A DNA stretch of 33,255 bases from IMG/VR virus record IMGVR_UViG_2737471834_000009; one strand, 5' to 3'. Under the pieces are notes generated by a model. It was not told the DNA's origin. It saw only the letters and a program-made list of their open reading frames with translations, and made no database searches. Positions 1 through 17,595 of this stretch are shown here, piece after piece. Source of the stretch: a virus (Duplodnaviria; Heunggongvirae; Uroviricota; Caudoviricetes). How positions within the stretch are numbered: position 1 is the first letter of the stretch; every line of letters starts with the position of its first letter. A program made the position numbers and the translations under genes.

Positions 1-1020
1 CTACTTACTGACCACAAGCGGCAAATCCAGTGTTGGTGTGATTTTGGTTTTACGATCGTAAATCAACACCTGATTTTCTGTTTTATGTCCACTGAAAATT
101 TGTTTGTCGCGGCTGCTGCCTTCGTAATCTGAAATCCCTTTGGCTTTTATGTCATGGAAGTTGCACCCAAACGGAGTGCCGGCTTTTTGCTCGGCTGCAC
201 GTTTAGCCTGATTCCACCAGTTGTTCAGCGTCTTAGCTATGACCTTCCCGCCTTTGGTTGTGTTGATCACATACTCGCATGTACTGGAAGATACATTTCT
301 GGCTAACTGGATCGCCGTGCGTAATCGCGGAGACCATTCTTTGATTTGCTTAGTGCCGGTCTTGTTTTGCTCAATGTAGATCCCCTTATCCATAATATCC
401 TGCCATTTCAGTTCGAGCACATCACCAAGCCTTGCCGCACAAAGATAGGATATCTCCATTGCAATGCGTAACTGTGGAGTTGCTTCCGCATATATCGCAG
501 CATACTGTTCATCGGTGATGTAAACAGTACGGGCCTTAAGCGTGAATTTTCTGACTCCTTTGCATGGATTATTTTTCACATATCCACGTTCATATCCCCA
601 TCCGTATACACGGCTCAGGCTTGCCAGTTCATGGTTTGCCTGGGTCTTGCTCTCAAGTCCTCGCTTATCCATGAAAATTCTTACCTGTTCTATTTTTACA
701 TTATCAGCAAGCACTTTTCCGAATACTGCCAGTAATGCCCTTTGATGTTGCCGATAATCTTTTTGAGTTCGTGGTGCCAATTCTGTAAATGCAGGGGAGT
801 CCATAAACATGTGCCATAATTTAGCGACAGTCATTATGTTGTGAAGTTTTGCTTTTTCCAGTTCATAATTTTGCCAGACTTTAGCCACGCTGGTTTCCCG
901 CACTTTTCCGAGCCCTATAGTTCTTGTGCTTCCTTCGGGTTTCCATACATAACTGTAACCATTCGATCTAACACGTGGCGGCAGTGCGTTATCTTTTTTG
1001 TTTTTTCTTGGTCTTCCCAT
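1..1020 (-). CDS. int: phage integrase, tyrosine recombinase family
   Basis: 339-aa ORF with basic N-terminal arm-binding-like region and C-terminal catalytic-like region ending ...HKTENQVLIYDRK; first gene of the prophage, followed by an overlapping small upstream gene. Confidence 0.85.
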   Translation of the reverse strand: MGRPRKNKKDNALPPRVRSNGYSYVWKPEGSTRTIGLGKVRETSVAKVWQNYELEKAKLHNIMTVAKLWHMFMDSPAFTELAPRTQKDYRQHQRALLAVFGKVLADNVKIEQVRIFMDKRGLESKTQANHELASLSRVYGWGYERGYVKNNPCKGVRKFTLKARTVYITDEQYAAIYAEATPQLRIAMEISYLCAARLGDVLELKWQDIMDKGIYIEQNKTGTKQIKEWSPRLRTAIQLARNVSSSTCEYVINTTKGGKVIAKTLNNWWNQAKRAAEQKAGTPFGCNFHDIKAKGISDYEGSSRDKQIFSGHKTENQVLIYDRKTKITPTLDLPLVVSK

Positions 1021-1240
1021 TGTTCAGCGCCTCAAAATCGGGTTCAGCAGAAACCAGTTCAGATACTTTCGACATCGCTTTCAGCCCGTGCGGAACATCC
1101 TGGCGAAGAACTATTGGTTCGTTTTTAGGTCCGACTACAAACGGGATGCCGTGCAGCCTTAGCTGGTGTTGCTGTCTTGTGTATCGCGTGTATCTTGTGA
1201 TCTCTTCAATCTCTGCTGGCGATAGAGTTAATTCGTACAT
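989..1240 (-). CDS. putative excisionase / small DNA-binding protein (assigned by position)
   Basis: Small ORF overlapping the integrase start by 32 nt; internal ATG start gives MYELTLSPAEIEEI...; no clear match to lambda Xis. Confidence 0.45.
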   Translation of the reverse strand: MYELTLSPAEIEEITRYTRYTRQQHQLRLHGIPFVVGPKNEPIVLRQDVPHGLKAMSKVSELVSAEPDFEALNNGKTKKKQKR

Positions 1241-1306
1241 GTGGTCACGTGCCTTACAGCATGACCGCCGCCAATATAATTCGGAGACGGCGATCATGGT
1301 TGAACA

Positions 1307-3748
1307 TTAAAAATCAACCGGATTCGGGATCAGTTTTTGCCAGATAGCTGAAACGTATTTTGCCTGGTAACGAGCGTCATCAAGTGCATTATGGCGCTCA
1401 CCTTCGAATGGAATAGCCGTTCTGGCATCGAAGTCTATGGCTTTCCCCAGCTCAACGATTGTGCGTACATCGCGATCGTTGTAGTAACGCCACGGGCAGG
1501 GGATCCCCTGCCGTTCGTATGAACGGCGCAAAATCGTGTTGTCGAAGTTGGCTCCATTTCCCCAGACCTGAACAAAAAATTCACCGGAGTTTTCGTCGAT
1601 AAATTCCCGCAATTGTAACAGTGCATCATCTAACGGGATTTCATCGGTCATAATGGCAGATTGCGCTTCGCGTGATTGCTTAAGCCACCATTTAATGGTG
1701 TCCCGATCAATGACTCCGCCAGCAGTTTCCAGATCGATAGTCTTACTAAATTCCGGTCCCATATCTCCGGTTTGCGGATCGAAAAATATTGCACCTATTG
1801 AGATGATCGGGGCATCAGGATTTTTTCCCATGGTTTCAAGGTCGATCATTAGATGGTCACACGTCCTGCTGGTGGATGTGATTTCGTGATGACCGTTCAC
1901 CTTAATTGAGTGATCTGCCGTCTCGCCAGTTTTATTATCGCTGGCGTGATGCTGATTGCCGCCAGGGTTCTCCTTGTGTGGATGTTCAGCGCCTTCCATT
2001 TCCTCCGGATCATTTTCCTGAACTTCAACCTGATTCTCTTCATCGAATGTTTCCTGGTATGTTGCGTCGCCCATCACCGCGCCACAATCAGGGCAGTTGC
2101 CGCCACCGCTCTGACCGCAGGCGGTGCAGACTTTTTCCGGTTCCTGTTGCGCTACTGGTTCGGATTGTTTCGTTTCTGGCTCGTTTTGTAACGCATTTGG
2201 GCTGTTTTGTTCCGCTTTTTGGTCGTTCCGTTCCGATTCATGCTGGTTCTGGTTCACAGAATCGCGAGTCTGGATCCCCTTGACCCATTTCGGATCATTA
2301 GGGTCGCTAATCCCCTCAACAAATTCACCACGCGATACAGCAAGTAACTTATCGGCGTCAGGCTGGCTGATATTGGCTGCCTGCATAATTTTGTTTACTT
2401 CGTCAGCGGTGACTTTTACTTGGTTAGCGGAACTCACCTGCGACTGAGCATCCAGCGACTGCGCGTTCTGGCCATGTTCAGTTGTATCCGGTTCCATTGT
2501 TTCAGTTGTTGCCTGTTCACCTGCCATTGCGTCAGATGGTTGTGGTTTTTCTTCTTCTGTTTCACGCTCAGTAACCACCTCGCGGTTAATTTCTTCCAGG
2601 ATATCTTTTTCCGGCGTATGCCGGGCAGCTGTGAGAGTTTCCTTGCTGGGGTTCTCGTGATCAGTTTCCGTCAAATAGGCGTTGATATACCCCTGAAGGC
2701 GTCCCGGGTAGTGATAAAATTCAGGGTGTGCGCTTCGGATAAGTGCAAAAATAGCGGCGCGGGAATAGTCCAGAATACCCGGGGTTGCACGAAGTGCTGC
2801 GGACCATTCTTTGAACGGACTTTCTTTGTTCAGGACTACTTCTTTTGCGCGACGATAAACGCTGCCCGGAATTTCATAAATATTAAAATCCATCGGAAGT
2901 GTGGCTGCTGCAATCTCCACATCCAGTGTGTCGAGGGTGTGTACTAAATTCGGATTGCGATCGGTTTTGTTCCCACCGCCAGCATTAGCACCGGAAGCCG
3001 TGCGGGTGATGCGTGAAACACGATTTCCTTTCATCCACTCTTTTGTCAGCAGGCCGCGATCGGTGTAGTCAGCGTCCAGGTATGCTTCGAAAAAAGCAGT
3101 CATTAATCCCAGACTGGAATTAACGGGATTAGGGAAAACTTTGTCAGTGTCGCGAACCAGTTTGTGGAGGTCGCGAAGTTCCAGTGGGTCGAGCAGGCTG
3201 GTTTTGTGCGAAATAGCCAGGGCAGTAACTGCCGGTAGCTCTTCAGCCCGAGCGATATGTAATGCCTGAAGTTCATCTCTTGAAACGTGTGTTACTGGTT
3301 TTTCGCTGCCGTGTTGAGCAAGCCAACGGATAGCCACCTCCTGACCGGAAACTGGCAGGAGCATGCTCTCCTCAATCTCCGTCATGTCTTCGCCGTTAAC
3401 ATTGGTATTTTCGGTGCTGGCTGGTTTGTTCTGCACAGAGGGAGATGGCGCGGTGAATACCATTGTGATGCCATCTTCACCGCCTTTTTCATAGCGGTTA
3501 CAGAATTCGGTATCAAACACGCCTTCTGGTGGAAGGTCATTCACAACAGGCAAATGGACGCGAACAGGTTTTTTAAAGTCCTCTTCGTCGTAACCAGCAT
3601 CATCCATTGCGACATTACCGCGGGAAACTGCAACAGATAATTTTTTTGCTGTAGTCCAGTAAAAACCGCCTTTAATACCGAGACGTTTTCTGACTTTGTC
3701 ATTTTTGGCTTCGTAATGGAGTGCAATGTCTTGTTTGTCAGTGCTCAT
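1307..3748 (-). CDS. large exonuclease-like protein with C-terminal DnaQ-like (DEDDh) 3'-5' exonuclease domain
   Basis: C-terminus has motifs DLETMG, WGNGANFD and HNALDDARY typical of DEDD exonucleases; central CxxC...CxxC (CTACGQSGGGNCPDCG); long acidic Q/E-rich linker; RBS GAGG before ATG at 3748. Confidence 0.7.
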   Translation of the reverse strand: MSTDKQDIALHYEAKNDKVRKRLGIKGGFYWTTAKKLSVAVSRGNVAMDDAGYDEEDFKKPVRVHLPVVNDLPPEGVFDTEFCNRYEKGGEDGITMVFTAPSPSVQNKPASTENTNVNGEDMTEIEESMLLPVSGQEVAIRWLAQHGSEKPVTHVSRDELQALHIARAEELPAVTALAISHKTSLLDPLELRDLHKLVRDTDKVFPNPVNSSLGLMTAFFEAYLDADYTDRGLLTKEWMKGNRVSRITRTASGANAGGGNKTDRNPNLVHTLDTLDVEIAAATLPMDFNIYEIPGSVYRRAKEVVLNKESPFKEWSAALRATPGILDYSRAAIFALIRSAHPEFYHYPGRLQGYINAYLTETDHENPSKETLTAARHTPEKDILEEINREVVTERETEEEKPQPSDAMAGEQATTETMEPDTTEHGQNAQSLDAQSQVSSANQVKVTADEVNKIMQAANISQPDADKLLAVSRGEFVEGISDPNDPKWVKGIQTRDSVNQNQHESERNDQKAEQNSPNALQNEPETKQSEPVAQQEPEKVCTACGQSGGGNCPDCGAVMGDATYQETFDEENQVEVQENDPEEMEGAEHPHKENPGGNQHHASDNKTGETADHSIKVNGHHEITSTSRTCDHLMIDLETMGKNPDAPIISIGAIFFDPQTGDMGPEFSKTIDLETAGGVIDRDTIKWWLKQSREAQSAIMTDEIPLDDALLQLREFIDENSGEFFVQVWGNGANFDNTILRRSYERQGIPCPWRYYNDRDVRTIVELGKAIDFDARTAIPFEGERHNALDDARYQAKYVSAIWQKLIPNPVDF

Positions 3749-3877
3749 TGTTTTTAACCTCAACTAAGATTAAAATTCCTCCGGAATGATGAATAAATGT
3801 CCCAGGTTCATCATTCTGGCCTGCACTGAGTGCAGGCCTTTTTACCATTCAGATTTCATCTTTTAGTTCTGTCCCAA

Positions 3878-4123
3878 TCAGTGAGGCCAGATACATGTCT
3901 TTTTTTCTGCAGGCAGATTCTTAATGATATGCACCAGACACATTTTTTTAACACCATCGTTAAGTGTTTTAACATTTCCTGAGAAACCGTAGATATCAAC
4001 CACAGTGAATGGGGTTTCTTTATTTTCTGTCTTAATTACGTAGCCAATACGCTTTTCTTCAAGATTAACCTCGTGAACAATATTATCAGCAGTAACAGTA
4101 GTGACTTCATAACTGGTAATCAT
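3878..4123 (-). CDS. hypothetical small protein, distal gene of the dicB operon
   Basis: 81-aa ORF from internal ATG preceded by AAGGAGA; position downstream of ydfD. Confidence 0.45.
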   Translation of the reverse strand: MITSYEVTTVTADNIVHEVNLEEKRIGYVIKTENKETPFTVVDIYGFSGNVKTLNDGVKKMCLVHIIKNLPAEKKTCIWPH

Positions 4124-4207
4124 ATTTTTCTCCTTAATTAAGGTTGAGTGAATCCCTGCCATTGCTGGCATATAAGAATGAAACCGGATATTTATTACGG
4201 AACTGTT

Positions 4208-4399
4208 TTAAAGACCTGCCGGGATTTCGATATTATCCTGGTGAATAACTTTATCGACCGGGTAACAGTTACCGGGAATTTTCTGTTCGGTTGCTGCAGT
4301 CATACACTCCTGCATTGTCCTGTGAACACTGACTGCAATATCAACTGGCTCTCCGGAAACAAGAAAAACTGTCAGAACAAGCGCAAATGCTGAATTCAT
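4208..4399 (-). CDS. ydfD: YdfD-like small membrane protein
   Basis: 63-aa product MNSAFALVLTVFLVSGEP... with hydrophobic N-terminus; start overlaps dicB stop (ATGA); same position and size as Qin prophage ydfD. Confidence 0.65.
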   Translation of the reverse strand: MNSAFALVLTVFLVSGEPVDIAVSVHRTMQECMTAATEQKIPGNCYPVDKVIHQDNIEIPAGL

Positions 4400-4584
4400 T
4401 GTGCACATCCTTTTGGCATCAGACGTAAACGAGCCAGCATTGAAACAATGCATATTTTATTTAATAGCTCCCGTTCTTGTTTTCTCTTGTTAATGGCATC
4501 TTCAGTAAATACAGGGTTACTGATAGTGACACCAATTTCAAAACAACCTTCAGACGTATTAACGTTTGGTAATAACGTTTTCAT
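4396..4584 (-). CDS. dicB: cell division inhibitor DicB
   Basis: 62-aa product MKTLLPNVNTSEGCFEIGVTISNPVFTEDAINKRKQERELLNKICIVSMLARLRLMPKGCAQ matches my memory of E. coli DicB; lies immediately downstream of the DicF sRNA. Confidence 0.85.
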   Translation of the reverse strand: MKTLLPNVNTSEGCFEIGVTISNPVFTEDAINKRKQERELLNKICIVSMLARLRLMPKGCAQ

Positions 4585-4753
4585 TATCGCGTCCTCAACA
4601 ATGAATTTTGTGATGCAGTGCCTGGTGCCTCCAGGTGACGTTAACCAGTTAACAATTAACGCCGGATACAGAGAATCCACCCATAACACTGTTTTTGGTT
4701 TTAACTGTTCCGCGTGCGCTTAGCCGCATTCACCGCATCACAAAATTCACTTT

Positions 4754-4811
4754 AAAAAGGGCGGCAGAGCAGTCACGGAGTAAAACTGATACCGCCAAAC
4801 GTCACCAGAAA
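4754..4811 (-). ncRNA. dicF: DicF small RNA (ftsZ-targeting sRNA) with intrinsic terminator
   Basis: Minus-strand sequence TTTCTGGTGACGTTTGGCGGTATCAGTTTTACTCCGTGACTGCTCTGCCGCCC followed by a T-run; GGCGG...CCGCC terminator hairpin; located between ydfC and dicB as in the Qin prophage. Confidence 0.8.
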
Positions 4812-5152
4812 ATTGATAACAGAGGGCGTTGCAGCGGGGTTGTCACTTAAGCGTATGGTCAACCTGACAACCCGGTGTCCTCAACGGGGGAAGGAATAAC
4901 CCCGCCATACTTACCGCCGCGCCATTTCGCGGATTGCCACAACCGGAAGCGCACGGTCGACGAAAATTTAACGACAGGCTATCTATGAACCAGCTACCTC
5001 GCCGTGCGCTTTCGCGTTATGGTCTGACTTTTCAGGGAAATATCCTTTCAGTAAACTGTCAGTGCCGGATGCTCACCCGTGTCCGGCGCACGCACTCCAC
5101 CTCACCCGTGGAGAACTCCTTAATTACCAACCTTAGCTTCGTTGGTTAGCTA

Positions 5153-5371
5153 TTAACGCGGGTATGTAATCATTCTGGCAATGGTTAATGCCGCTGCTTT
5201 TTCCAGCCTGGTGATATCCTGCTCCAGAGAGGACAGATTTTCAGCCTGCTTAGCCCTGGCTTCATTAGCCCATTTCAGATCCTGCGCTGCATTAATTTTC
5301 TGGTGCATCCACTCATAAAGTTCATCATCGGTATAGTCTGGCGCGATGATGACGGGTTCTCGTTTCTGCAT
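5153..5371 (-). CDS. ydfC: YdfC-like hypothetical protein
   Basis: 72-aa ORF in the expected position and size between ydfB and DicF. Confidence 0.6.
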   Translation of the reverse strand: MQKREPVIIAPDYTDDELYEWMHQKINAAQDLKWANEARAKQAENLSSLEQDITRLEKAAALTIARMITYPR

Positions 5372-5400
5372 ACTGATTCCTCGCGGTGCTGTTTCGCTTA

Positions 5401-5529
5401 TCAGCCGTTAGATTTTGCCGAACTGGAAAGCGCCTGTTTAAATTCGCTGAAGCTGTGAGCTCCTTCGCCTTCGGCAAGGCCTTCGAAGTATTCTTCGTAA
5501 GCCTTTTCCATGATTGTGTCAAAATCCAT
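5401..5529 (-). CDS. ydfB: YdfB-like small protein
   Basis: 42-aa ORF MDFDTIMEKAYEEYFEGLAEGEGAHSFSEFKQALSSSAKSNG translated by hand from the minus strand; below the size cut-off of the ORF track. Confidence 0.65.
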   Translation of the reverse strand: MDFDTIMEKAYEEYFEGLAEGEGAHSFSEFKQALSSSAKSNG

Positions 5530-5530
5530 A

Positions 5531-5686
5531 TCACTCACCTGAGTTTCTTTCCAGCCAGCGACGGGCACCATTTTCGGTTTTAAACGTTTTGCTTTTGGTA
5601 TACGTCATTGCGGTGAAGGTGCCGTCCTGGTTTGGAAACACGCCGTACACCAGAGATTCGTTGTTGCCAAGATCGATAGTATCCAT
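5531..5686 (-). CDS. ydfA: YdfA-like small protein (first gene of the dicB operon)
   Basis: 51-aa product from internal Met MDTIDLGNNESLVYGVFPNQDG...; a start at 5767 is also possible. Confidence 0.6.
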   Translation of the reverse strand: MDTIDLGNNESLVYGVFPNQDGTFTAMTYTKSKTFKTENGARRWLERNSGE

Positions 5687-5865
5687 GCTGACCTCATTTC
5701 CCCTTAACGCCGGGGTAGCGGAACAAAAACCTGCTGCATAGTTATTAAAGTTGAACCCTGCCGTCATGTTCTTACGCCTCGGGCTGGCTACTTAACCCCT
5801 GACCACTGCCGGGTAACTCGAAGTATTGCCTGGCGTTCTGTGGGGCGGGGTGGGTTTATGGATAC

Positions 5866-5895
5866 AATTTACAAATTAAAATTTAACTGGTCAAC
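5866..5895 (-). promoter_or_regulatory. putative pL-like promoter of the dicB operon, overlapped by operator half-sites
   Basis: Minus-strand -35 TTGACC (5894-5889), 17-bp spacer, -10 TAAATT (5871-5866); half-site TTTACAAAT overlaps the -10. Confidence 0.4.
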
Positions 5896-5927
5896 ATGTT
5901 TATTATTAAATTTGTAATTGCGAGCTG

Positions 5928-5962
5928 TTGCATCAGTCCCAAAATGGGACTACTATACAGTT
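5928..5962 (+). promoter_or_regulatory. putative promoter with palindromic operator for the HigB/HigA-like pair
   Basis: -35 TTGCAT (5928-5933), -10 TACTAT (5951-5956), with palindrome GTCCCA-AAA-TGGGAC (5936-5950) in the spacer; predicted start site at or next to the ATG at 5963. Confidence 0.4.
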
Positions 5963-6265
5963 ATGAAGATTATCTCAGTTAAAACACTCAGGGATTTTTG
6001 GGCGGAGAATCCTGATGCAGAACAACCGCTAAGGGCATGGGTGGATGAGGCGGCAAAAGCTGACTGGAAAAGCCCAGCAGACATTAAGGCACAATACCGA
6101 ACGGCCAGTATATTGAAAAACCGGCGCGTGGTATTCAACATAAAAGGTAATCATTACCGTTTAATTGTTGCAATTGCGTATCAGCGAGGATGGGTATTTG
6201 TTAAATTCATCGGAAACCACAAGGAATACGATGCTATTGATGCTGATACCATCGAACTGGAGTAA
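5963..6265 (+). CDS. HigB-like toxin (RelE/ParE superfamily mRNA interferase)
   Basis: 100-aa product MKIISVKTLRDFWAENPDAEQ...VFNIKGNHYRLIVAIAYQ...FIGNHKEYD resembles HigB family proteins from memory; toxin gene precedes the antitoxin as in higBA. Confidence 0.75.
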   Translation: MKIISVKTLRDFWAENPDAEQPLRAWVDEAAKADWKSPADIKAQYRTASILKNRRVVFNIKGNHYRLIVAIAYQRGWVFVKFIGNHKEYDAIDADTIELE

Positions 6266-6267
6266 GC

Positions 6268-6627
6268 ATGAACATCAAACCTATTCGTACAGAGCAAGAT
6301 TATGAAGCCGCGTTGCGTGCTGTTGAACCCATGTTCGACAATGAGCCCGAAATTGACACGCCTGAGGGGGATTTTTTTGAGGTGATGTGTTTGCTAATAG
6401 AGGAATATGAAAAAAAACATTATCCCATTGAGCCACCATCCCCAATTGAAGCTATAAGATTTCGCATGGAACAGCAGGGGCTGACTGTGAAAGATTTGGA
6501 ACCCGCAATTGGGAAAAAAAATCGGGTTTATGAGGTGTTGAATGGTACCAGAAGCCTTACGTTACCAATGATTCGCCGTCTTCATAATCAATTTGGTATC
6601 CCCCTGGAAAGCCTGGTTGGATTATAA
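6268..6627 (+). CDS. HigA-like antitoxin, HTH XRE family
   Basis: 119-aa product with C-terminal helix-turn-helix (LTVKDLEPAIGKKNRVYEVLNGTRSLTLPMIRRLHNQFGIP); starts 3 nt after the toxin stop. Confidence 0.75.
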   Translation: MNIKPIRTEQDYEAALRAVEPMFDNEPEIDTPEGDFFEVMCLLIEEYEKKHYPIEPPSPIEAIRFRMEQQGLTVKDLEPAIGKKNRVYEVLNGTRSLTLPMIRRLHNQFGIPLESLVGL

Positions 6628-9023: not shown

Positions 9024-9477
9024 GCAGCAAATCCGGCAGGTCTGCGGACAGTGCATGGACCGTTGCCGGGCGGGTGAAACATGGCCCCCTGACCTGGCTG
9101 AATTTGTGGCGCTGGTTTCGGAAAGCGGAGCCAATCCGTTTGGTCTGACGGTGGATGCCGTGATGGAGGAGTACCGCCGCTGGAGAAATGAATCCTGGCG
9201 ATACGACGGGAGTGATAAATACCCGTGGCCACAGCCTGTGCTGTACCACATTTGCCTTGAGATGCGCACCAGAGGGATTGAACGTCAGATGACCGAAGGG
9301 GAGTTAAAACGACTTGCAGAACGGCAACTGACGAAATGGGCGAAGCATGTTGGTAACGGGATGAGTGTTCCGCCAGTGCGACGACAACTGGAAGGGGCGA
9401 AACACCCGCAAGGGCCAACGCCAATTGAACAACTGAAACAGGAATACGAACGCCGGAAGGCAGCTGGTTTTATTTGA
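8935..9477 (+). CDS. replication protein, lambda P-like (DnaB helicase loader)
   Basis: Collinear similarity to lambda P (WPPDLAEFVALV / YPWPQPVLYHICLEM / MTEGELKRLAERQL versus FLPSPGQFVAWC / YPWKSNAHYWLVTNL / LTDAELRRKAADEL); start uncertain: 8812, 8935 and 9016 are all in frame. Confidence 0.65.
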   Translation: MGEVYSNRWTQKNGAAPSKLWIAQIGAMTEQQIRQVCGQCMDRCRAGETWPPDLAEFVALVSESGANPFGLTVDAVMEEYRRWRNESWRYDGSDKYPWPQPVLYHICLEMRTRGIERQMTEGELKRLAERQLTKWAKHVGNGMSVPPVRRQLEGAKHPQGPTPIEQLKQEYERRKAAGFI

Positions 9478-11183: not shown

Positions 11184-11660
11184 ATGCAAGAAATCAAAGA
11201 AAATATCAGGCAACAGCTTTACGGGTTTTATATTGCTTATGATTTGTGGCTGAAGAACGGGGCAAAACCCGGCGGAGTGTTTTCTCAAAATTATGGTTTA
11301 TGCGCCAATCTTTTCGATTATCTCACATTAATTGGTACCCCCTGTGAGGCAGCGCTGGAGCAATTACACGCTGATTTCAGAAGTGCCGGGCTGAATGAGG
11401 CGTTGCCGTTTAACGAGGGTAAAGAGCATTACCATGAAGAAAGAGGGCACAACATGTGCCATATGAATCCGGCACGAGTGGCGTGGGTCAGGGCGCAGAC
11501 AGGGCAGCCAGCGCCGGAAGGACTGGTTAAAGCGGTGCGCTTCTATGAACAGGTTAAGCGTGAAAATCCGCCAGTCGAAACCGGAGCATGGAAAGACGCT
11601 GTTGACTGGGTTCTCGAAGAGGCTTGTCAGGCTGTAAACATTCGCATCAAAGGAGAGTGA
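11184..11660 (+). CDS. hypothetical protein ending IRIKGE
   Basis: 158-aa ORF; the last six codons are encoded by junction element copy 2; SD is separated from the ATG by a GAAA-tetraloop hairpin. Confidence 0.6.
   Translation: MQEIKENIRQQLYGFYIAYDLWLKNGAKPGGVFSQNYGLCANLFDYLTLIGTPCEAALEQLHADFRSAGLNEALPFNEGKEHYHEERGHNMCHMNPARVAWVRAQTGQPAPEGLVKAVRFYEQVKRENPPVETGAWKDAVDWVLEEACQAVNIRIKGE
11639..11657 (+). repeat. junction element copy 2 (CATTCGCATCAAAGGAGAG)
   Basis: Encodes the C-terminal IRIKGE of the upstream gene and the RBS of the downstream gene. Confidence 0.8.
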
Positions 11661-11662
11661 GA

Positions 11663-12154
11663 ATGCAAATTTCACCGGTTACTCTTCGTGTTGCGAAGGC
11701 GTTTATATCCAGACATCACCGACACAATAAACCACCTGTTGGGCATAAATTCAGCATTGGTCTGATAAATGATGCCGGAGAATTGATAGGTGTGGCGACA
11801 GCTGGTCGACCTGTTGCACGACATTTGGACGATGGATTAACGCTTGAAGTAAATCGCACATGTACCACAGGAGAACGCAACGCTAACAGCGCGCTTTATG
11901 GTGCTGTCTGGCGAGCAGCAAAAGCTATGGGTTATCAACGTTGTATTACGTACACCCAGGCAGATGAATCAGGAGCATCTCTTCGCGCAGCTGGTTTTGT
12001 TCGTGTGAAAGAGCTTCCTCCAAGAAAAAGCTGGGCGGAATCAAGCGTCGCCTTGCGGAGTAAACGCGATCCGGTCGGAAACGGTGGTGTTCCTCGTGTG
12101 CTCTGGGAAATCAGGAGAATGAGTACCACTGGCATTCGCATCAAAGGAGAGTGA
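11663..12154 (+). CDS. hypothetical protein ending IRIKGE (possible small alpha/beta enzyme-like fold, unassigned)
   Basis: 163-aa ORF MQISPVTLRVAKAFISRHHRHNKPP...; translationally coupled to both neighbours; terminal codons encoded by junction element copy 3. Confidence 0.6.
   Translation: MQISPVTLRVAKAFISRHHRHNKPPVGHKFSIGLINDAGELIGVATAGRPVARHLDDGLTLEVNRTCTTGERNANSALYGAVWRAAKAMGYQRCITYTQADESGASLRAAGFVRVKELPPRKSWAESSVALRSKRDPVGNGGVPRVLWEIRRMSTTGIRIKGE
12133..12151 (+). repeat. junction element copy 3 (CATTCGCATCAAAGGAGAG)
   Basis: Same 19-mer; followed by TGA then ATATG start of the next gene. Confidence 0.8.
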
Positions 12155-13358: not shown

Positions 13359-13639
13359 GAAGGAAACAAAACAGAAACAACAATTGCCGTTACCTGTTGT
13401 TACCATGGCAAGTAAACGTATCTCAGGCGAGCGCATTGCGCCGTTCTGACGCAGATAAATTAGCCTGGATAGAAGGTGCTGGCAATAAAAAATAGCGTTT
13501 TCTTATCGGTGTCGGTAAGATTGCTGCGGGTGCTTGAGGCTGTCTGCCTCAGGCATGCCACTGTAAGGCAGACAGAGAAAAGCCCCAGTTAACATTATGC
13601 GTCCGGCAAGACGCTTAACATTAATCTGAGGCTCAATCT

Positions 13640-13852
13640 ATGAACGGCAAATCTAGGTTAGCCTCTTACGCGCCGAAAGGCAAGGAGAAGCAGGCTATGA
13701 AGCAGCAAAAGGCGATGTTAGTCGCCCTGATCGTCATCTGTATTACCGTCATTGTGACGGCACTGGTAACGAGGAAAGACCTCTGCGAGGTACGAATCCG
13801 AACCGGCCAGACGGAGGTCACTGTCTTCACAGCTTACGAACCTGAGGAGTAA
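13640..13852 (+). CDS. Mok-like reading frame (in-frame N-terminal extension of Hok)
   Basis: 70-aa ORF containing the hok frame, as in chromosomal mok/hok loci. Confidence 0.55.
   Translation: MNGKSRLASYAPKGKEKQAMKQQKAMLVALIVICITVIVTALVTRKDLCEVRIRTGQTEVTVFTAYEPEE
13697..13852 (+). CDS. hok: Hok/Gef family type I toxin
   Basis: 51-aa product MKQQKAMLVALIVICITVIVTALVTRKDLCEVRIRTGQTEVTVFTAYEPEE is near-identical to remembered HokD/RelF; mRNA leader has the tac-like hairpin GCTTGAGGCTGTCTGCCTCAGG. Confidence 0.85.
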   Translation: MKQQKAMLVALIVICITVIVTALVTRKDLCEVRIRTGQTEVTVFTAYEPEE

Positions 13853-17285: not shown

Positions 17286-17361
17286 GGCCCTTTAGCTCAG
17301 TGGTGAGAGCGAGCGACTCATAATCGCCAGGTCGCTGGTTCAAATCCAGCAAGGGCCACCA
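17286..17361 (+). tRNA. tRNA, anticodon CAU (ileX/ileZ-like tRNA-Ile2; tRNA-Met not excluded)
   Basis: Manual cloverleaf: acceptor GGCCCTT/AAGGGCC, anticodon loop CTCATAA, T-loop TTCAAAT, CCA encoded; close to remembered ileX. Confidence 0.8.
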
Positions 17362-17362
17362 A

Positions 17363-17439
17363 CCGCCACTAGCTCATCAGGAAAGAGCGTCAACCCTTTA
17401 AGTTGAGTGTGCGAGGTTCGAGTCCCCGGTGGCGGTCCA
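17363..17439 (+). tRNA. atypical tRNA, anticodon loop CCTTTAA (anticodon UUU, Lys-like, with C at position 33)
   Basis: Manual cloverleaf: acceptor CCGCCAC/GTGGCGG (C1-G72), D-loop with GG, T-loop TTCGAGT, CCA encoded; isotype uncertain. Confidence 0.55.
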
Positions 17440-17441
17440 GT

Positions 17442-17517
<76 letters not shown>

Positions 17518-17520
17518 TAT

Positions 17521-17595
<75 letters not shown>

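What the first reader, a model, noticed from the sequence alone, without database searches (positions are those of the whole stretch)
1307..3748. Large exonuclease with a DEDDh C-terminus, a zinc ribbon and a long acidic linker, without a partner annealase
Proteins at this position are often labelled exodeoxyribonuclease VIII, but RecE itself has a PD-(D/E)XK nuclease domain, whereas this product shows DEDD motifs (DLETMG, WGNGANFD, HNALDDARY). The N-terminal 400 aa are unassigned, and no RecT/Bet-like gene is nearby. Its role in recombination, anti-restriction or something else is open.
Basis: partly seen in the sequence, partly recalled or inferred. Interest (0 to 1): 0.5.

Follow-up and report, generated by a model that had tools for sequence, protein, structure and literature searches.

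The report
RecE scaffold carrying a swapped exonuclease
This prophage gene keeps the large, still-unexplained front part of the recombination nuclease RecE but carries a 3'-to-5' DnaQ-type exonuclease where RecE has its own nuclease, has no RecT partner gene next to it, and its nuclease domain is found in about four of five sequenced E. coli genomes, with no experimental study of it in the papers searched.

Summary
Window 1307-3748 (-) is an intact 813-aa gene with DEDDh motifs, a CxxC..CxxC ribbon and a disordered acidic linker, and no annealase is encoded in the prophage's early region.

The interpretation needs one correction. The N-terminal ~610 aa are not unassigned. They are homologous to Rac RecE residues 50-591 (57% identity), and this includes the zinc ribbon and the linker.

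Homology ends at the RecE domain boundary. RecE's PD-(D/E)XK domain is replaced by a DexA/Rv2179c-like DEDDh domain (Pfam 1.5e-67; Foldseek to T4 DexA 1e-10).

In 80 related viral contigs, an N-module 85-95% identical to the window's in most loci is followed by one of three cassettes:
- DEDDh alone, in about 70 loci, with no RecT, Bet, lambda Exo or Gam found.
- K-12-type PD-(D/E)XK plus RecT, in 4 loci.
- A longer PD-(D/E)XK plus a divergent RecT, in 3 loci (one truncated).

All folded parts are under purifying selection.

The most likely reading is an annealase-independent 3'-5' exonuclease tethered by the RecE N-module and expressed from the dicBF-type early-left operon. Its biological role is unresolved: end degradation, scavenging, exclusion or counter-defence.

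It is a new variant of a known kind, of moderate interest.

The parts
1307..3748 (-). Whole CDS, 813 aa plus stop: RecE-N scaffold fused to a DEDDh exonuclease
   Evidence: ORF list. Pfam PF06630 plus PF16473. 96% identical RefSeq gene annotated '3'-5' exonuclease' with the same boundaries. 100% identical protein in IMG/VR locus L006.
2549..3748 (-). N-module, aa 1-400: three predicted folded blocks (about 1-100, 120-250, 265-398), homologous to the RecE N-terminal region of unknown function
2384..2548 (-). Disordered acidic segment, aa 401-455
   Evidence: pLDDT 38-43. 18-28% D/E. dN/dS about 0.3-0.46.
2249..2383 (-). Most constrained short motif, aa 456-500 (ADKLLAVSRGEFVEGISDPNDPKWVKGIQTRD), shared with RecE
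   Evidence: Conserved in RecE. dN/dS 0.03-0.14, the lowest in the gene. Identical at nucleotide level to the RecE-type loci L079 and L083.
2084..2128 (-). CxxC-x7-CxxC zinc-ribbon-like motif, aa 541-555
   Evidence: Sequence. Shared with RecE. Found in 66 of 74 close relatives but not in diverged ones. Pfam DZR only E 0.1.
1862..2083 (-). Acidic disordered linker, aa 556-629. Homology to RecE ends at aa ~612 (nt ~1913), which is the cassette junction
   Evidence: Alignment A2 diverges after '...TGE(T/V)AD'. pLDDT 35-46. 28% D/E.
1310..1861 (-). DEDDh (DnaQ-like) 3'-5' exonuclease domain, aa 630-813, DexA/Rv2179c-like. Exo I is at nt 1826-1843, Exo II at 1541-1564, Exo III at 1367-1393
   Evidence: Pfam PF16473 E 1.5e-67. 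PDB sequence hit to T4 DexA 8kel. pLDDT above 90. Foldseek to DexA E 1e-10. Catalytic residues mapped. dN/dS 0.09-0.16.
989..1297 (-). DUF4224 excisionase-like gene, starting 9 nt after the exonuclease stop. This is where RecT sits in RecE-type prophages
   Evidence: Pfam DUF4224. Same gene order in E. coli 33F4 and phage Tritos. RecT follows RecE in Rac and in L078, L079, L082 and L084.
1..1020 (-). Tyrosine integrase, the end of the early-left operon
   Evidence: Pfam Phage_integrase.
3878..5767 (-). Upstream genes of the same leftward operon: a phrog_4778 ORF, a DUF1482 (ydfD-like) gene, dicB, DicF sRNA (4759-4810), ydfC- and ydfB-like ORFs, and a DUF1391 (ydfA-like) gene
   Evidence: Pfam and PHROG. 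Rfam DicF 76.7 bits. Same order as the K-12 Qin dicBF operon.
5866..5894 (-). Candidate early-left promoter (TTGACC-17-TAAATT) upstream of the ydfA-like gene
   Evidence: Consensus scan only. The number of promoter-like sites in the region is not above chance. This assignment is inferred.

Best explanation
The gene is a modular variant of the RecE (exonuclease VIII) family. Its first ~612 residues are the RecE N-terminal scaffold. That scaffold comprises three folded domains of unknown function, a highly constrained short motif, a zinc-ribbon-like insert and a disordered acidic tether.

Exactly at the boundary where RecE's 5'-3' PD-(D/E)XK nuclease begins, the protein instead carries a DexA/Rv2179c-type DEDDh domain. 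The recT gene that follows recE is absent.

Shown here: the domain identities, the junction, the co-variation of RecT with the PD-(D/E)XK cassettes only, purifying selection on every folded part, and the position as the last gene before xis-int in a dicBF-type early-left operon.

Inferred from family knowledge: the C-terminal domain is a metal-dependent exonuclease that removes nucleotides from free 3'-OH ends, with His786 as general base. It probably acts on DNA, as T4 DexA does. It is made when the prophage is derepressed or on infection. The N-module delivers it to whatever RecE's N-module recognises.

A 3'-5' exonuclease destroys the 3' tails that annealases and RecA need. The protein is therefore most likely not a recombination initiator. 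It is more likely an annealase-independent end-degrading enzyme, used for trimming or destroying linear DNA: host, competitor-phage or immune nucleic acids, or its own intermediates.
For: - Pfam gives Exonuc_VIII plus Rv2179c-like.
- The NCBIfam exoVIII model covers positions 1-602 only and scores below its cut-off.
- Residues 58-615 align with RecE 50-591 at 57% identity.
- The junction lies after aa ~612.
- DexA is the only PDB sequence hit and the best fold hit. All five catalytic residues are conserved.
- Among 80 IMG/VR loci, about 70 DEDDh-type loci have no RecT, Bet, lambda Exo or Gam. All six complete PD-(D/E)XK-type loci have a RecT-family gene overlapping the stop codon (L078, L079, L082, L084 by tblastn; L083 by Pfam, with L081 carrying the same 1041-aa protein); downstream of the truncated L077 was not examined.
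- The window's aa 401-500 are nucleotide-identical to the RecE-type loci. dS differs more than 10-fold between segments of the same pair, which indicates ongoing cassette exchange.
- dN/dS is 0.09-0.26 on the folded parts.
- 60 of 66 complete DEDDh-type ORFs are near full length with the motifs present (one, L019, failed the motif screen only by an A-to-V change beside the histidine).
- The two-domain architecture also occurs at 40-45% identity in Atlantibacter and Citrobacter; a shorter 385-aa protein that matches the DEDDh end occurs in Shimwellia.
- The window has no annealase.
- The gene order cI ... dicF-dicB-ydfD-exo-xis-int is conserved in E. coli 33F4 and in phage Tritos.
- A listed paper title reports that a xonA (ExoI) mutation enhances RecET linear DNA assembly. 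That the loss of a 3'-5' ssDNA exonuclease helps annealing is my reading of the title.
Against: - No activity, polarity or substrate (DNA versus RNA) was measured. The Pfam family is named after an exoribonuclease.
- The biological role is not constrained by the data. T4 DexA does take part in double-strand-break processing during intron homing (abstract of PMC12153337), so a recombination-related role with host RecA or RecFOR is not excluded.
- The survey for annealases in the 80 loci used only RecT and Bet as queries. Other annealase families were excluded only for the window itself.
- Expression from the early-left promoter is inferred from gene order, not shown.
Confidence: 0.6

Rival explanations
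1. It is a prophage-encoded defence or superinfection-exclusion nuclease of the 'HREX' type. Like the E. coli DexA homologue EcD, it would spare unmodified DNA and degrade 5hmC-modified DNA of incoming T-even phages, protecting the lysogen.
For: The C-terminal domain is a DexA homologue. PMC12153337 reports that plasmid-borne EcD from E. coli degrades T4 DNA and protects against T4. The domain is carried by 4227 of 5426 complete E. coli genomes, with up to 8 copies, which suggests a benefit to carriers. Its neighbours DicB/DicF and a PD-Lambda-2-like HigBA pair are conflict genes.
Against: By alignment, the residues reported to read 5hmC are not kept: DexA W152 corresponds to Y756 and D169 to A770. 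The tetramer residue D90, which is absent in EcD, is retained here as D708. That alignment is only 27% identical, so it is uncertain in loops. EcD is a stand-alone protein starting MIDTET (primer sequence), whereas this domain is fused to 630 aa of RecE scaffold. The gene sits in an operon expected to be repressed in the lysogen. There is no PADLOC hit. I could not retrieve the EcD sequence, so its distance from this domain is unknown.
Confidence: 0.15
2. It is a recombination or repair exonuclease that still works in double-strand-break processing. It would use host functions (RecA, RecFOR, SSB) or the phage's RusA in place of a phage annealase, as T4 DexA contributes to gap widening in intron homing.
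For: It retains the whole RecE scaffold, which enhances linear-linear recombination in RecE (review PMC11611040). DexA has a reported role in intron homing (abstract). The prophage encodes RusA. It occupies the same genomic slot as recE.
Against: 3'-5' polarity removes the 3' tail needed for annealing or RecA loading. RecT is never kept with the DEDDh cassette in about 70 loci. A listed paper title reports that a xonA mutation enhances RecET assembly; reading that as loss of a 3'-5' ssDNA exonuclease favouring annealing is my inference.
Confidence: 0.15
3. It is an exoribonuclease, as in Rv2179c and as in the frequent RefSeq label '3'-5' exoribonuclease'. It would trim or degrade RNAs, either host or phage transcripts or RNA components of immune systems.
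For: The Pfam family is named for the M. tuberculosis exoribonuclease Rv2179c. Many database names say exoribonuclease. The next-best structural neighbours are RNase T, 3'hExo/ERI and oligoribonuclease.
Against: The closest solved relative by sequence and by fold is the DNA exonuclease DexA. The domain replaces a DNase on a scaffold tied to DNA recombination. DEDDh enzymes such as RNase T also cut DNA, as the titles of the PDB entries show, so the name does not discriminate.
Confidence: 0.07
4. It is a true RecE (exodeoxyribonuclease VIII) orthologue, as labelled in several phage records.
For: Annotation in GenBank phage records. A strong partial match to the exoVIII NCBIfam model and to PHROG 607.
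Against: It has no PD-(D/E)XK (DUF3799) domain, whereas K-12 RecE and the L079 protein do. The NCBIfam score is below cut-off and covers only model positions 1-602 of 877. There is no RecT.
Confidence: 0.01
5. It is a decaying remnant of a cryptic prophage with no current function.
For: Some copies are truncated (L023, L039, L049, L055). K-12 Qin ydfE is an IS2-disrupted fragment of a related gene.
Against: Most copies are intact. dN/dS is 0.09-0.26 on the folded parts. Catalytic residues are invariant. The gene is present in isolated phage genomes such as vB_EcoS-640R1, Tritos and mEp460.
Confidence: 0.02

Closest known systems
RecE / exonuclease VIII of the Rac prophage (E. coli K-12 b1350), with RecT
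   Same: The N-terminal ~590 residues are homologous (57% identity; Pfam Exonuc_VIII), including the DPNDPKW motif, the CxxC..CxxC ribbon and the acidic tether. Both occupy the same slot in the early-left operon just upstream of xis-int. Some RecE-type genes carry an N-module 93-95% identical to this one.
   Different: RecE's C-terminal PD-(D/E)XK (DUF3799) 5'-3' dsDNA exonuclease domain is replaced by a DEDDh domain of the opposite expected polarity. The overlapping recT gene is absent. The protein fails the NCBIfam exoVIII equivalog cut-off.
T4 DexA (exodeoxyribonuclease A; PDB 8KEL/8KEN)
   Same: It is the closest solved relative of the C-terminal domain by sequence (E 2e-6) and by fold (Foldseek E 1e-10). 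It has the same five catalytic residues. It is a phage-encoded 3'-5' DNA exonuclease.
   Different: Identity is about 27%. DexA has extra loops and helices (alignment A1). DexA is a stand-alone 227-aa protein of a lytic phage. The reported 5hmC-reading residues W152 and D169 are not conserved here.
EcD / 'HREX' E. coli DexA homologue (GenBank HAK9828821.1; PMC12153337)
   Same: It is a bacterial or prophage DexA-family DEDDh exonuclease from E. coli, compact and lacking DexA's extra loops according to the paper.
   Different: EcD is stand-alone and starts MIDTET (primers). The signature used in the paper is not met here: W and D retained, D90 lost. The EcD sequence could not be retrieved, so its identity to this domain is unknown.
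Rv2179c-like 3'-5' exoribonuclease family (Pfam PF16473), including stand-alone phage and prophage members of 180-250 aa
   Same: There is a full-length, high-scoring match to the family model. Stand-alone versions up to 90% identical to this domain exist in E. coli. The domain is found in 1617 of 50,697 phage records.
   Different: Here the domain is the C-terminal module of an 813-aa protein. The name-giving member acts on RNA, and the substrate here is untested.
Tritos / mEp460 / PPompW-type 823-aa prophage exonuclease (the K-12 Qin ydfE pseudogene is its N-terminal fragment)
   Same: It has the same middle region, zinc ribbon, linker and DEDDh domain (95-97% nucleotide identity over the 3' half), and the same gene order dicB-ydfD-exo-xis-int.
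   Different: Its N-terminal ~430 aa are unrelated to the RecE N-module. There is no Exonuc_VIII hit, and it is 99% identical to YdfE over 256 aa.

Membership tests
RecE / exodeoxyribonuclease VIII (NCBIfam NF007259 equivalog) | Whole-protein match above the curated cut-off | tested here: not met
   940.6 bits against a cut-off of 1269. Only model positions 1-602 of 877 are matched.
RecE / exodeoxyribonuclease VIII | C-terminal PD-(D/E)XK nuclease domain (Pfam DUF3799) | tested here: not met
   No DUF3799 hit in the window protein, whereas K-12 RecE, L079 and L083 have one. There is no alignment beyond RecE residue 591.
RecE / exodeoxyribonuclease VIII | N-terminal Exonuc_VIII region (PF06630) | tested here: met
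   E 5.4e-34, 118 bits against a cut-off of 25. 57% identity to RecE 50-591.
RecE / exodeoxyribonuclease VIII (SynExo two-component recombinase) | Adjacent annealase gene (RecT) | tested here: not met
   None in the window. None in about 70 DEDDh-type loci, but present in all six complete PD-(D/E)XK-type loci; the truncated seventh, L077, was not examined downstream.
RecE / exodeoxyribonuclease VIII | 5'-3' dsDNA exonuclease activity | not testable with these tools
   Requires biochemistry.
DEDDh (DnaQ-like) 3'-5' exonucleases, Rv2179c-like/DexA subfamily (PF16473) | Family HMM match above the gathering score over the full model | tested here: met
   227 bits against a cut-off of 27, model positions 2-177 of 177.
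DEDDh (DnaQ-like) 3'-5' exonucleases | Catalytic D, E (Exo I), D (Exo II), H and D (Exo III) | tested here: met
   D636, E638, D736, H786 and D791 align to DexA D7/E9/D119/H186/D191. They are conserved in 35-36 of 36 relatives.
DEDDh (DnaQ-like) 3'-5' exonucleases | RNase H-like DnaQ fold | tested here: met
   The AlphaFold model has pLDDT above 90 for aa 630-813. Foldseek hits DexA, RNase T, 3'hExo and Orn with probability 1.0. This rests on a predicted structure, not a solved one.
DEDDh (DnaQ-like) 3'-5' exonucleases | 3'-5' exonuclease activity and substrate (DNA or RNA) | not testable with these tools
   Requires a polarity assay on end-labelled substrates.
HREX / EcD modification-dependent defence exonuclease (PMC12153337) | Equivalents of DexA W152 and D169 (5hmC recognition) retained | tested here: not met
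   Y756 and A770 occupy the aligned positions. W753 and D772/D774 lie nearby. The alignment is at 27% identity, so loop placement is uncertain.
HREX / EcD modification-dependent defence exonuclease | Loss of the tetramer residue (DexA D90) | tested here: not met
   D708 is retained at the aligned position.
HREX / EcD modification-dependent defence exonuclease | Protection against T4 and selective cleavage of modified DNA | not testable with these tools
   Requires plaque assays and nuclease assays.
Zinc ribbon | Two CxxC knuckles, conservation of the motif, and metal binding | tested here: inconclusive
   C541/C544/C552/C555 are present. The motif is kept in 66 of 74 close relatives and in RecE. 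However, Pfam DZR gives only E 0.1, pLDDT is 55-66, and the motif is absent from diverged family members.

The most novel reading that the evidence does not exclude
The RecE N-terminal region would be a polarity-agnostic targeting platform. It would bind a DNA-end structure or a host factor and could be armed with interchangeable nucleases. The DEDDh-armed version is the dominant form in E. coli. It would be a conflict effector rather than a recombinase. On induction or infection it would strip 3' ends from linear DNA to disable rival phages, host end-dependent immunity or repair (RecBCD or RecA loading), or DNA-based immune molecules.

If true, this would give the 40-year-old 'function unknown' N-terminal two-thirds of RecE a testable role. 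It would also define a new class of prophage-borne nuclease weapon.
Probability: 0.2. Interest if true: 0.7.

Novelty: new variant of a known kind. Interest (0 to 1): 0.45.

Why it matters
RecE/RecT is a workhorse of recombineering, yet the N-terminal two-thirds of RecE has no known function (review PMC11611040). This analysis shows that the same N-module, at 93-95% identity, is joined in nature to nucleases of opposite expected polarity. The annealase travels only with the 5'-3' nuclease. This implies that the N-module's job does not depend on strand polarity or on RecT, which narrows the hypotheses for it.

The DEDDh domain is also far more common than the RecE nuclease domain. Its DNA is found in 78% of complete E. 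coli genomes, at 9052 places. The RecE nuclease domain is found in 32%. No experimental paper on the fusion turned up in the library searched. It is also widely mislabelled as exodeoxyribonuclease VIII, a label that implies the wrong polarity and the wrong pathway.

A recent report that a stand-alone E. coli DexA homologue blocks T4 (PMC12153337) makes a role in phage-phage conflict directly testable.

Tried and rejected
1. Retrieving the EcD sequence (HAK9828821.1) to measure its distance from this domain. I took the primers from the paper's supplement. Exact-match scans of IMG/VR with the reverse primer gave nothing or a chance hit. A scan of GTDB genomes with the forward primer gave 99 chance hits. 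Only two were DEDDh genes (Hydrogenophaga 41% identity, Phocaeicola 30%), and neither carries the reverse primer. The stand-alone E. coli homologues I could fetch all start MIDLET or MNxLMIDLET, not MIDTET. This question remains unresolved.

2. My recollection that K-12 YdfE is a fragment of this gene's N-module was wrong. YdfE shows no similarity to the window protein. It is instead the N-terminus of the Tritos-type exonuclease.

4. Defence-system libraries. There is no PADLOC hit for the exonuclease.

5. Literature searches for Rv2179c with phage, for PF16473, and for ydfE with exonuclease found nothing on the fusion. Two searches were wasted on prefix matches of 'RecE' to 'receptor' or 'recent'.

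6. An own promoter for the gene. Promoter-like sites are no more frequent than in shuffled sequence, so none is claimed.

7. The search for homologous proteins returned only near-identical E. coli fragments. Diversity came from the representative search.
Full report
**1. What is at the coordinates.**
Window 1307..3748 (-) is one uninterrupted ORF of 813 codons. It starts at an ATG preceded by GAGG, and a TTG five codons upstream is an alternative start. The boundaries match the RefSeq annotation of a 96%-identical E. coli gene called '3'-5' exonuclease'. An IMG/VR contig, L006, encodes a 100%-identical protein with the same xis and int genes.

So are the two CxxC pairs at 541-555 and an acidic stretch that is 28% D/E and 2% K/R over aa 551-600.

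**2. Domain identities.**
Pfam finds two domains above threshold. Exonuc_VIII covers aa 52-189 (E 5e-34). Rv2179c-like 3'-5' exoribonuclease covers aa 632-803 (E 1.5e-67, the full model). The NCBIfam equivalog for exodeoxyribonuclease VIII matches only aa 1-615, which is model positions 1-602 of 877, and falls below its cut-off at 940 against 1269 bits.

BLASTP against K-12 Rac RecE aligns aa 58-615 with RecE 50-591 at 57% identity. Some blocks are near-identical, including the zinc ribbon and the acidic segment. Nothing aligns beyond that point. A four-way alignment places the break directly after '...TGE(T/V)AD', at window aa ~612 and RecE ~591. [quoted passage not shown]

Only the catalytic module differs.

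**3. The C-terminal domain is DnaQ-like DEDDh.**
The only sequence hits among solved structures are T4 DexA entries 8KEL and 8KEN. An AlphaFold model of aa 441-813 is confident for aa 630-813 (pLDDT above 90) and disordered for aa 557-626 (pLDDT 35-46). Foldseek ranks DexA first at E 1e-10, followed by RNase T, 3'hExo/ERI and oligoribonucleases.

DexA's catalytic D7/E9/D119/H186/D191 align with D636/E638/D736/H786/D791. These positions are kept in 35-36 of 36 diverse relatives.

**4. The N-module.**

**5. No annealase.**
Pfam and PHROG scans covered the predicted early-region ORFs from int (1-1020) through the replication and nin regions to Q and the lysis genes; they find no RecT, Bet, Erf or Rad52-type protein. 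They do find a DUF4224 xis-like gene, a DUF1482 gene, DicB, a DUF1391 gene, HigB/HigA, cI-, Cro- and YdaT-like genes, a replisome organiser, Hok, DUF968/HNH, RusA and Q. The xis-like gene starts 9 nt after the exonuclease stop, so there is no room for a downstream partner.

**6. The decisive comparison.**
The search for related loci returned 80 viral contigs. tblastn with separate probes gave a clean partition.

- About 70 loci carry the N-module plus the DEDDh domain. None has RecT, lambda Bet, lambda Exo or Gam within the sequence held.
- Four loci (L078, L079, L082, L084) carry an N-module 93-95% identical to the window's. It is followed by a PD-(D/E)XK domain 97-99% identical to K-12 RecE, and by RecT overlapping the stop codon.
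- Three loci (L077, L081, L083) carry the same N-module followed by a longer, divergent PD-(D/E)XK domain. In L083 this is a 1041-aa protein (Pfam DUF3799) with an overlapping 367-aa RecT-family gene; L081 carries the same 1041-aa protein, and L077 is truncated.

One scaffold thus has three alternative 3' cassettes, and the annealase co-varies strictly with PD-(D/E)XK.

A second kind of mosaicism also exists. Phages Tritos, mEp460 and PPompW carry the same middle region and DEDDh domain behind an unrelated N-terminus. The K-12 Qin pseudogene ydfE is the IS2-truncated remnant of that N-terminus.

**7. Selection and recombination.**
I computed Nei-Gojobori estimates between the window and diverged DEDDh-type loci.

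| Segment | dN/dS |
|---|---|
| N-module, aa 1-400 | 0.12-0.26 |
| Motif, aa 456-500 | 0.03-0.14 |
| DEDDh domain | 0.09-0.16 |
| Linkers | 0.3-0.8 |

Within one pair, dS differs more than 10-fold between segments. In L064 it is 0.91 in the N-module and 0.05 in the DEDDh domain. The window's aa 401-500 are nucleotide-identical to the RecE-type loci. The gene is therefore functional, and its modules are exchanged by recombination in the conserved middle region. Sixty of 66 complete DEDDh-type ORFs are near full length with the catalytic motifs present; one of these failed my motif screen only by an A-to-V change beside the histidine.

**8. Distribution.**
| Sequence | Complete E. coli genomes with a match | Places |
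|---|---|---|
| DEDDh-domain DNA | 4227 of 5426 | 9052, up to 8 per genome |
| Whole gene at 80% coverage or more | 1252 | not counted separately |
| RecE nuclease-domain DNA | 1743 of 5426 | 1835 |

A search of 1.84 billion cluster representatives gave 11,747 hits. These include diverged N-module proteins with either DUF3799 or Rv2179c-like C-termini, and many stand-alone DEDDh proteins of 180-250 aa. Named members of the two-domain type come from Atlantibacter and Citrobacter; a shorter 385-aa protein from Shimwellia matches the DEDDh end. The DEDDh domain occurs in 1617 of 50,697 phage records, including T-even dexA genes.

**9. Context.**
Rfam finds DicF at 4759-4810 (-). The leftward gene order is ydfA-like, ydfB-like, ydfC-like, dicF, dicB, ydfD-like, a phrog_4778 ORF, the exonuclease, xis and int. 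This mirrors the K-12 Qin dicBF operon and the E. coli 33F4 and Tritos prophages. Expression from the early-left promoter on derepression is inferred from this arrangement. The only candidate promoter, at 5866-5894 (-), is a consensus match no better than chance.

**10. Mechanism.**
Shown: the architecture, the junction, the cassette co-variation, the selective constraint and the operon position.

Inferred from established knowledge of DEDDh enzymes and from DexA: two-metal hydrolysis from free 3'-OH ends with His786 as general base, and probably DNA as the substrate.

A 3'-5' exonuclease removes the 3' tails that annealases and RecA use, and RecT is never retained with this cassette. I therefore consider an annealase-independent end-degrading role more likely than recombination initiation. 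A listed paper title reports that a xonA mutation enhances RecET assembly. My reading is that losing a 3'-5' ssDNA exonuclease favours annealing, which fits this view.

Which DNA is attacked cannot be decided here. It could be host, rival phage, immune nucleic acid or the phage's own intermediates.

**11. Comparison with the recent 'HREX' report.**
PMC12153337 shows that a stand-alone E. coli DexA homologue, EcD, degrades T4 DNA and protects cells. By alignment, the window's domain does not carry the signature that paper used. W152 corresponds to Y756, D169 to A770, and D90 is retained as D708. The domain is also fused rather than stand-alone, and it sits in an operon expected to be silent in lysogens. 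I could not obtain the EcD sequence. A defence role therefore remains a rival, at about 0.15, rather than the favoured reading.

**12. Verdict.**
The gene is a cassette-swapped variant of RecE, combining the RecE scaffold with a DexA/Rv2179c-like DEDDh nuclease and lacking RecT. It is very common, is under selection, has no experimental study in the library searched, and is often mislabelled.

It is not categorically new, because both modules and the Pfam architecture are in databases. I found no description of the swap or of its strict link to loss of the annealase. It also offers a handle on the unknown function of RecE's N-region. Interest is 0.45.

Noticed in passing
window 5918-6627 (+): A HigB-like toxin and an HTH antitoxin pair sit between the cI-like repressor and the early-left operon, on the opposite strand. 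They match the PADLOC models PD-Lambda-2_A (E 2e-40) and PD-Lambda-2_B. The B match covers only positions 1-119 of a 402-position model, so this may be a shortened or partial version of that defence system.
   Followed up: partly
window 4759-4810 (-) and 4396-4584 (-): DicF sRNA (Rfam 76.7 bits) and dicB lie upstream of the exonuclease in the same operon. The prophage's early-left operon is therefore a Qin-like dicBF operon.
   Followed up: partly
window 3818-3838: A strong 9-bp GC-rich hairpin (GGCCTGCAC-TGA-GTGCAGGCC) lies between the phrog_4778 ORF and the exonuclease start. Its T-run is on the + strand, antisense to the operon, and an A-run precedes it on the coding strand. Its role is unknown; it could be a terminator of antisense transcription, a processing site or a stabiliser.
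   Followed up: no
L087 3579-4499 (K-12 Qin ydfE) and L002 5641-8112 (phage Tritos): The K-12 pseudogene ydfE is 99% identical over 256 aa to the N-terminus of the 823-aa Tritos-type exonuclease. That protein has the same middle region and DEDDh domain as the window's but an unrelated N-module with no Pfam hit. K-12 therefore once carried a DEDDh-type gene that IS2 truncated.
   Followed up: yes
L083 8001-12229 (also L081; truncated in L077): A third cassette exists. It is a 1041-aa protein with the same N-module (93-95% identity) and a longer, divergent PD-(D/E)XK domain, followed by an overlapping 367-aa RecT-family gene with a long C-terminal extension.
   Followed up: partly
window 13528-13852 (+): A hok/sok type I toxin-antitoxin module (Rfam sok 111.7 bits; Pfam HOK_GEF) lies in the nin-like region.
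   Followed up: no
window 17286-17595 (+): A cluster of four tRNA genes (Met-CAT, Lys-TTT, Thr-TGT, Gly-TCC) lies between the Q antiterminator and the lysis genes.
   Followed up: no
window 11624-12154 (+): A 176-aa ORF has a weak, below-threshold match to the Pfam Mom family (E 4e-5, 23.8 bits against a cut-off of 27.1). The equivalent gene in E. coli 33F4 is annotated 'XF1762 family protein'. It may be a DNA-modification function.
   Followed up: no
L088 5989-6561 (E. coli PEC122): A stand-alone 190-aa DEDDh exonuclease has about 73% nucleotide identity to the window's domain. It sits in the early-left operon of a different prophage type (yfdP-yfdQ-yfdR, DUF551, exonuclease, PrtN-like), again without an annotated annealase.
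   Followed up: partly
window aa 235-264 of the exonuclease (nt ~2957-3046): The N-module contains a strongly conserved glycine-rich segment (TKEWMKGNRVSxITRTASGANAGGGNxTDR). It is nearly identical in RecE, and its centre is predicted disordered (pLDDT below 50 at aa 252-260). It could be a binding loop. No function is known.
   Followed up: no
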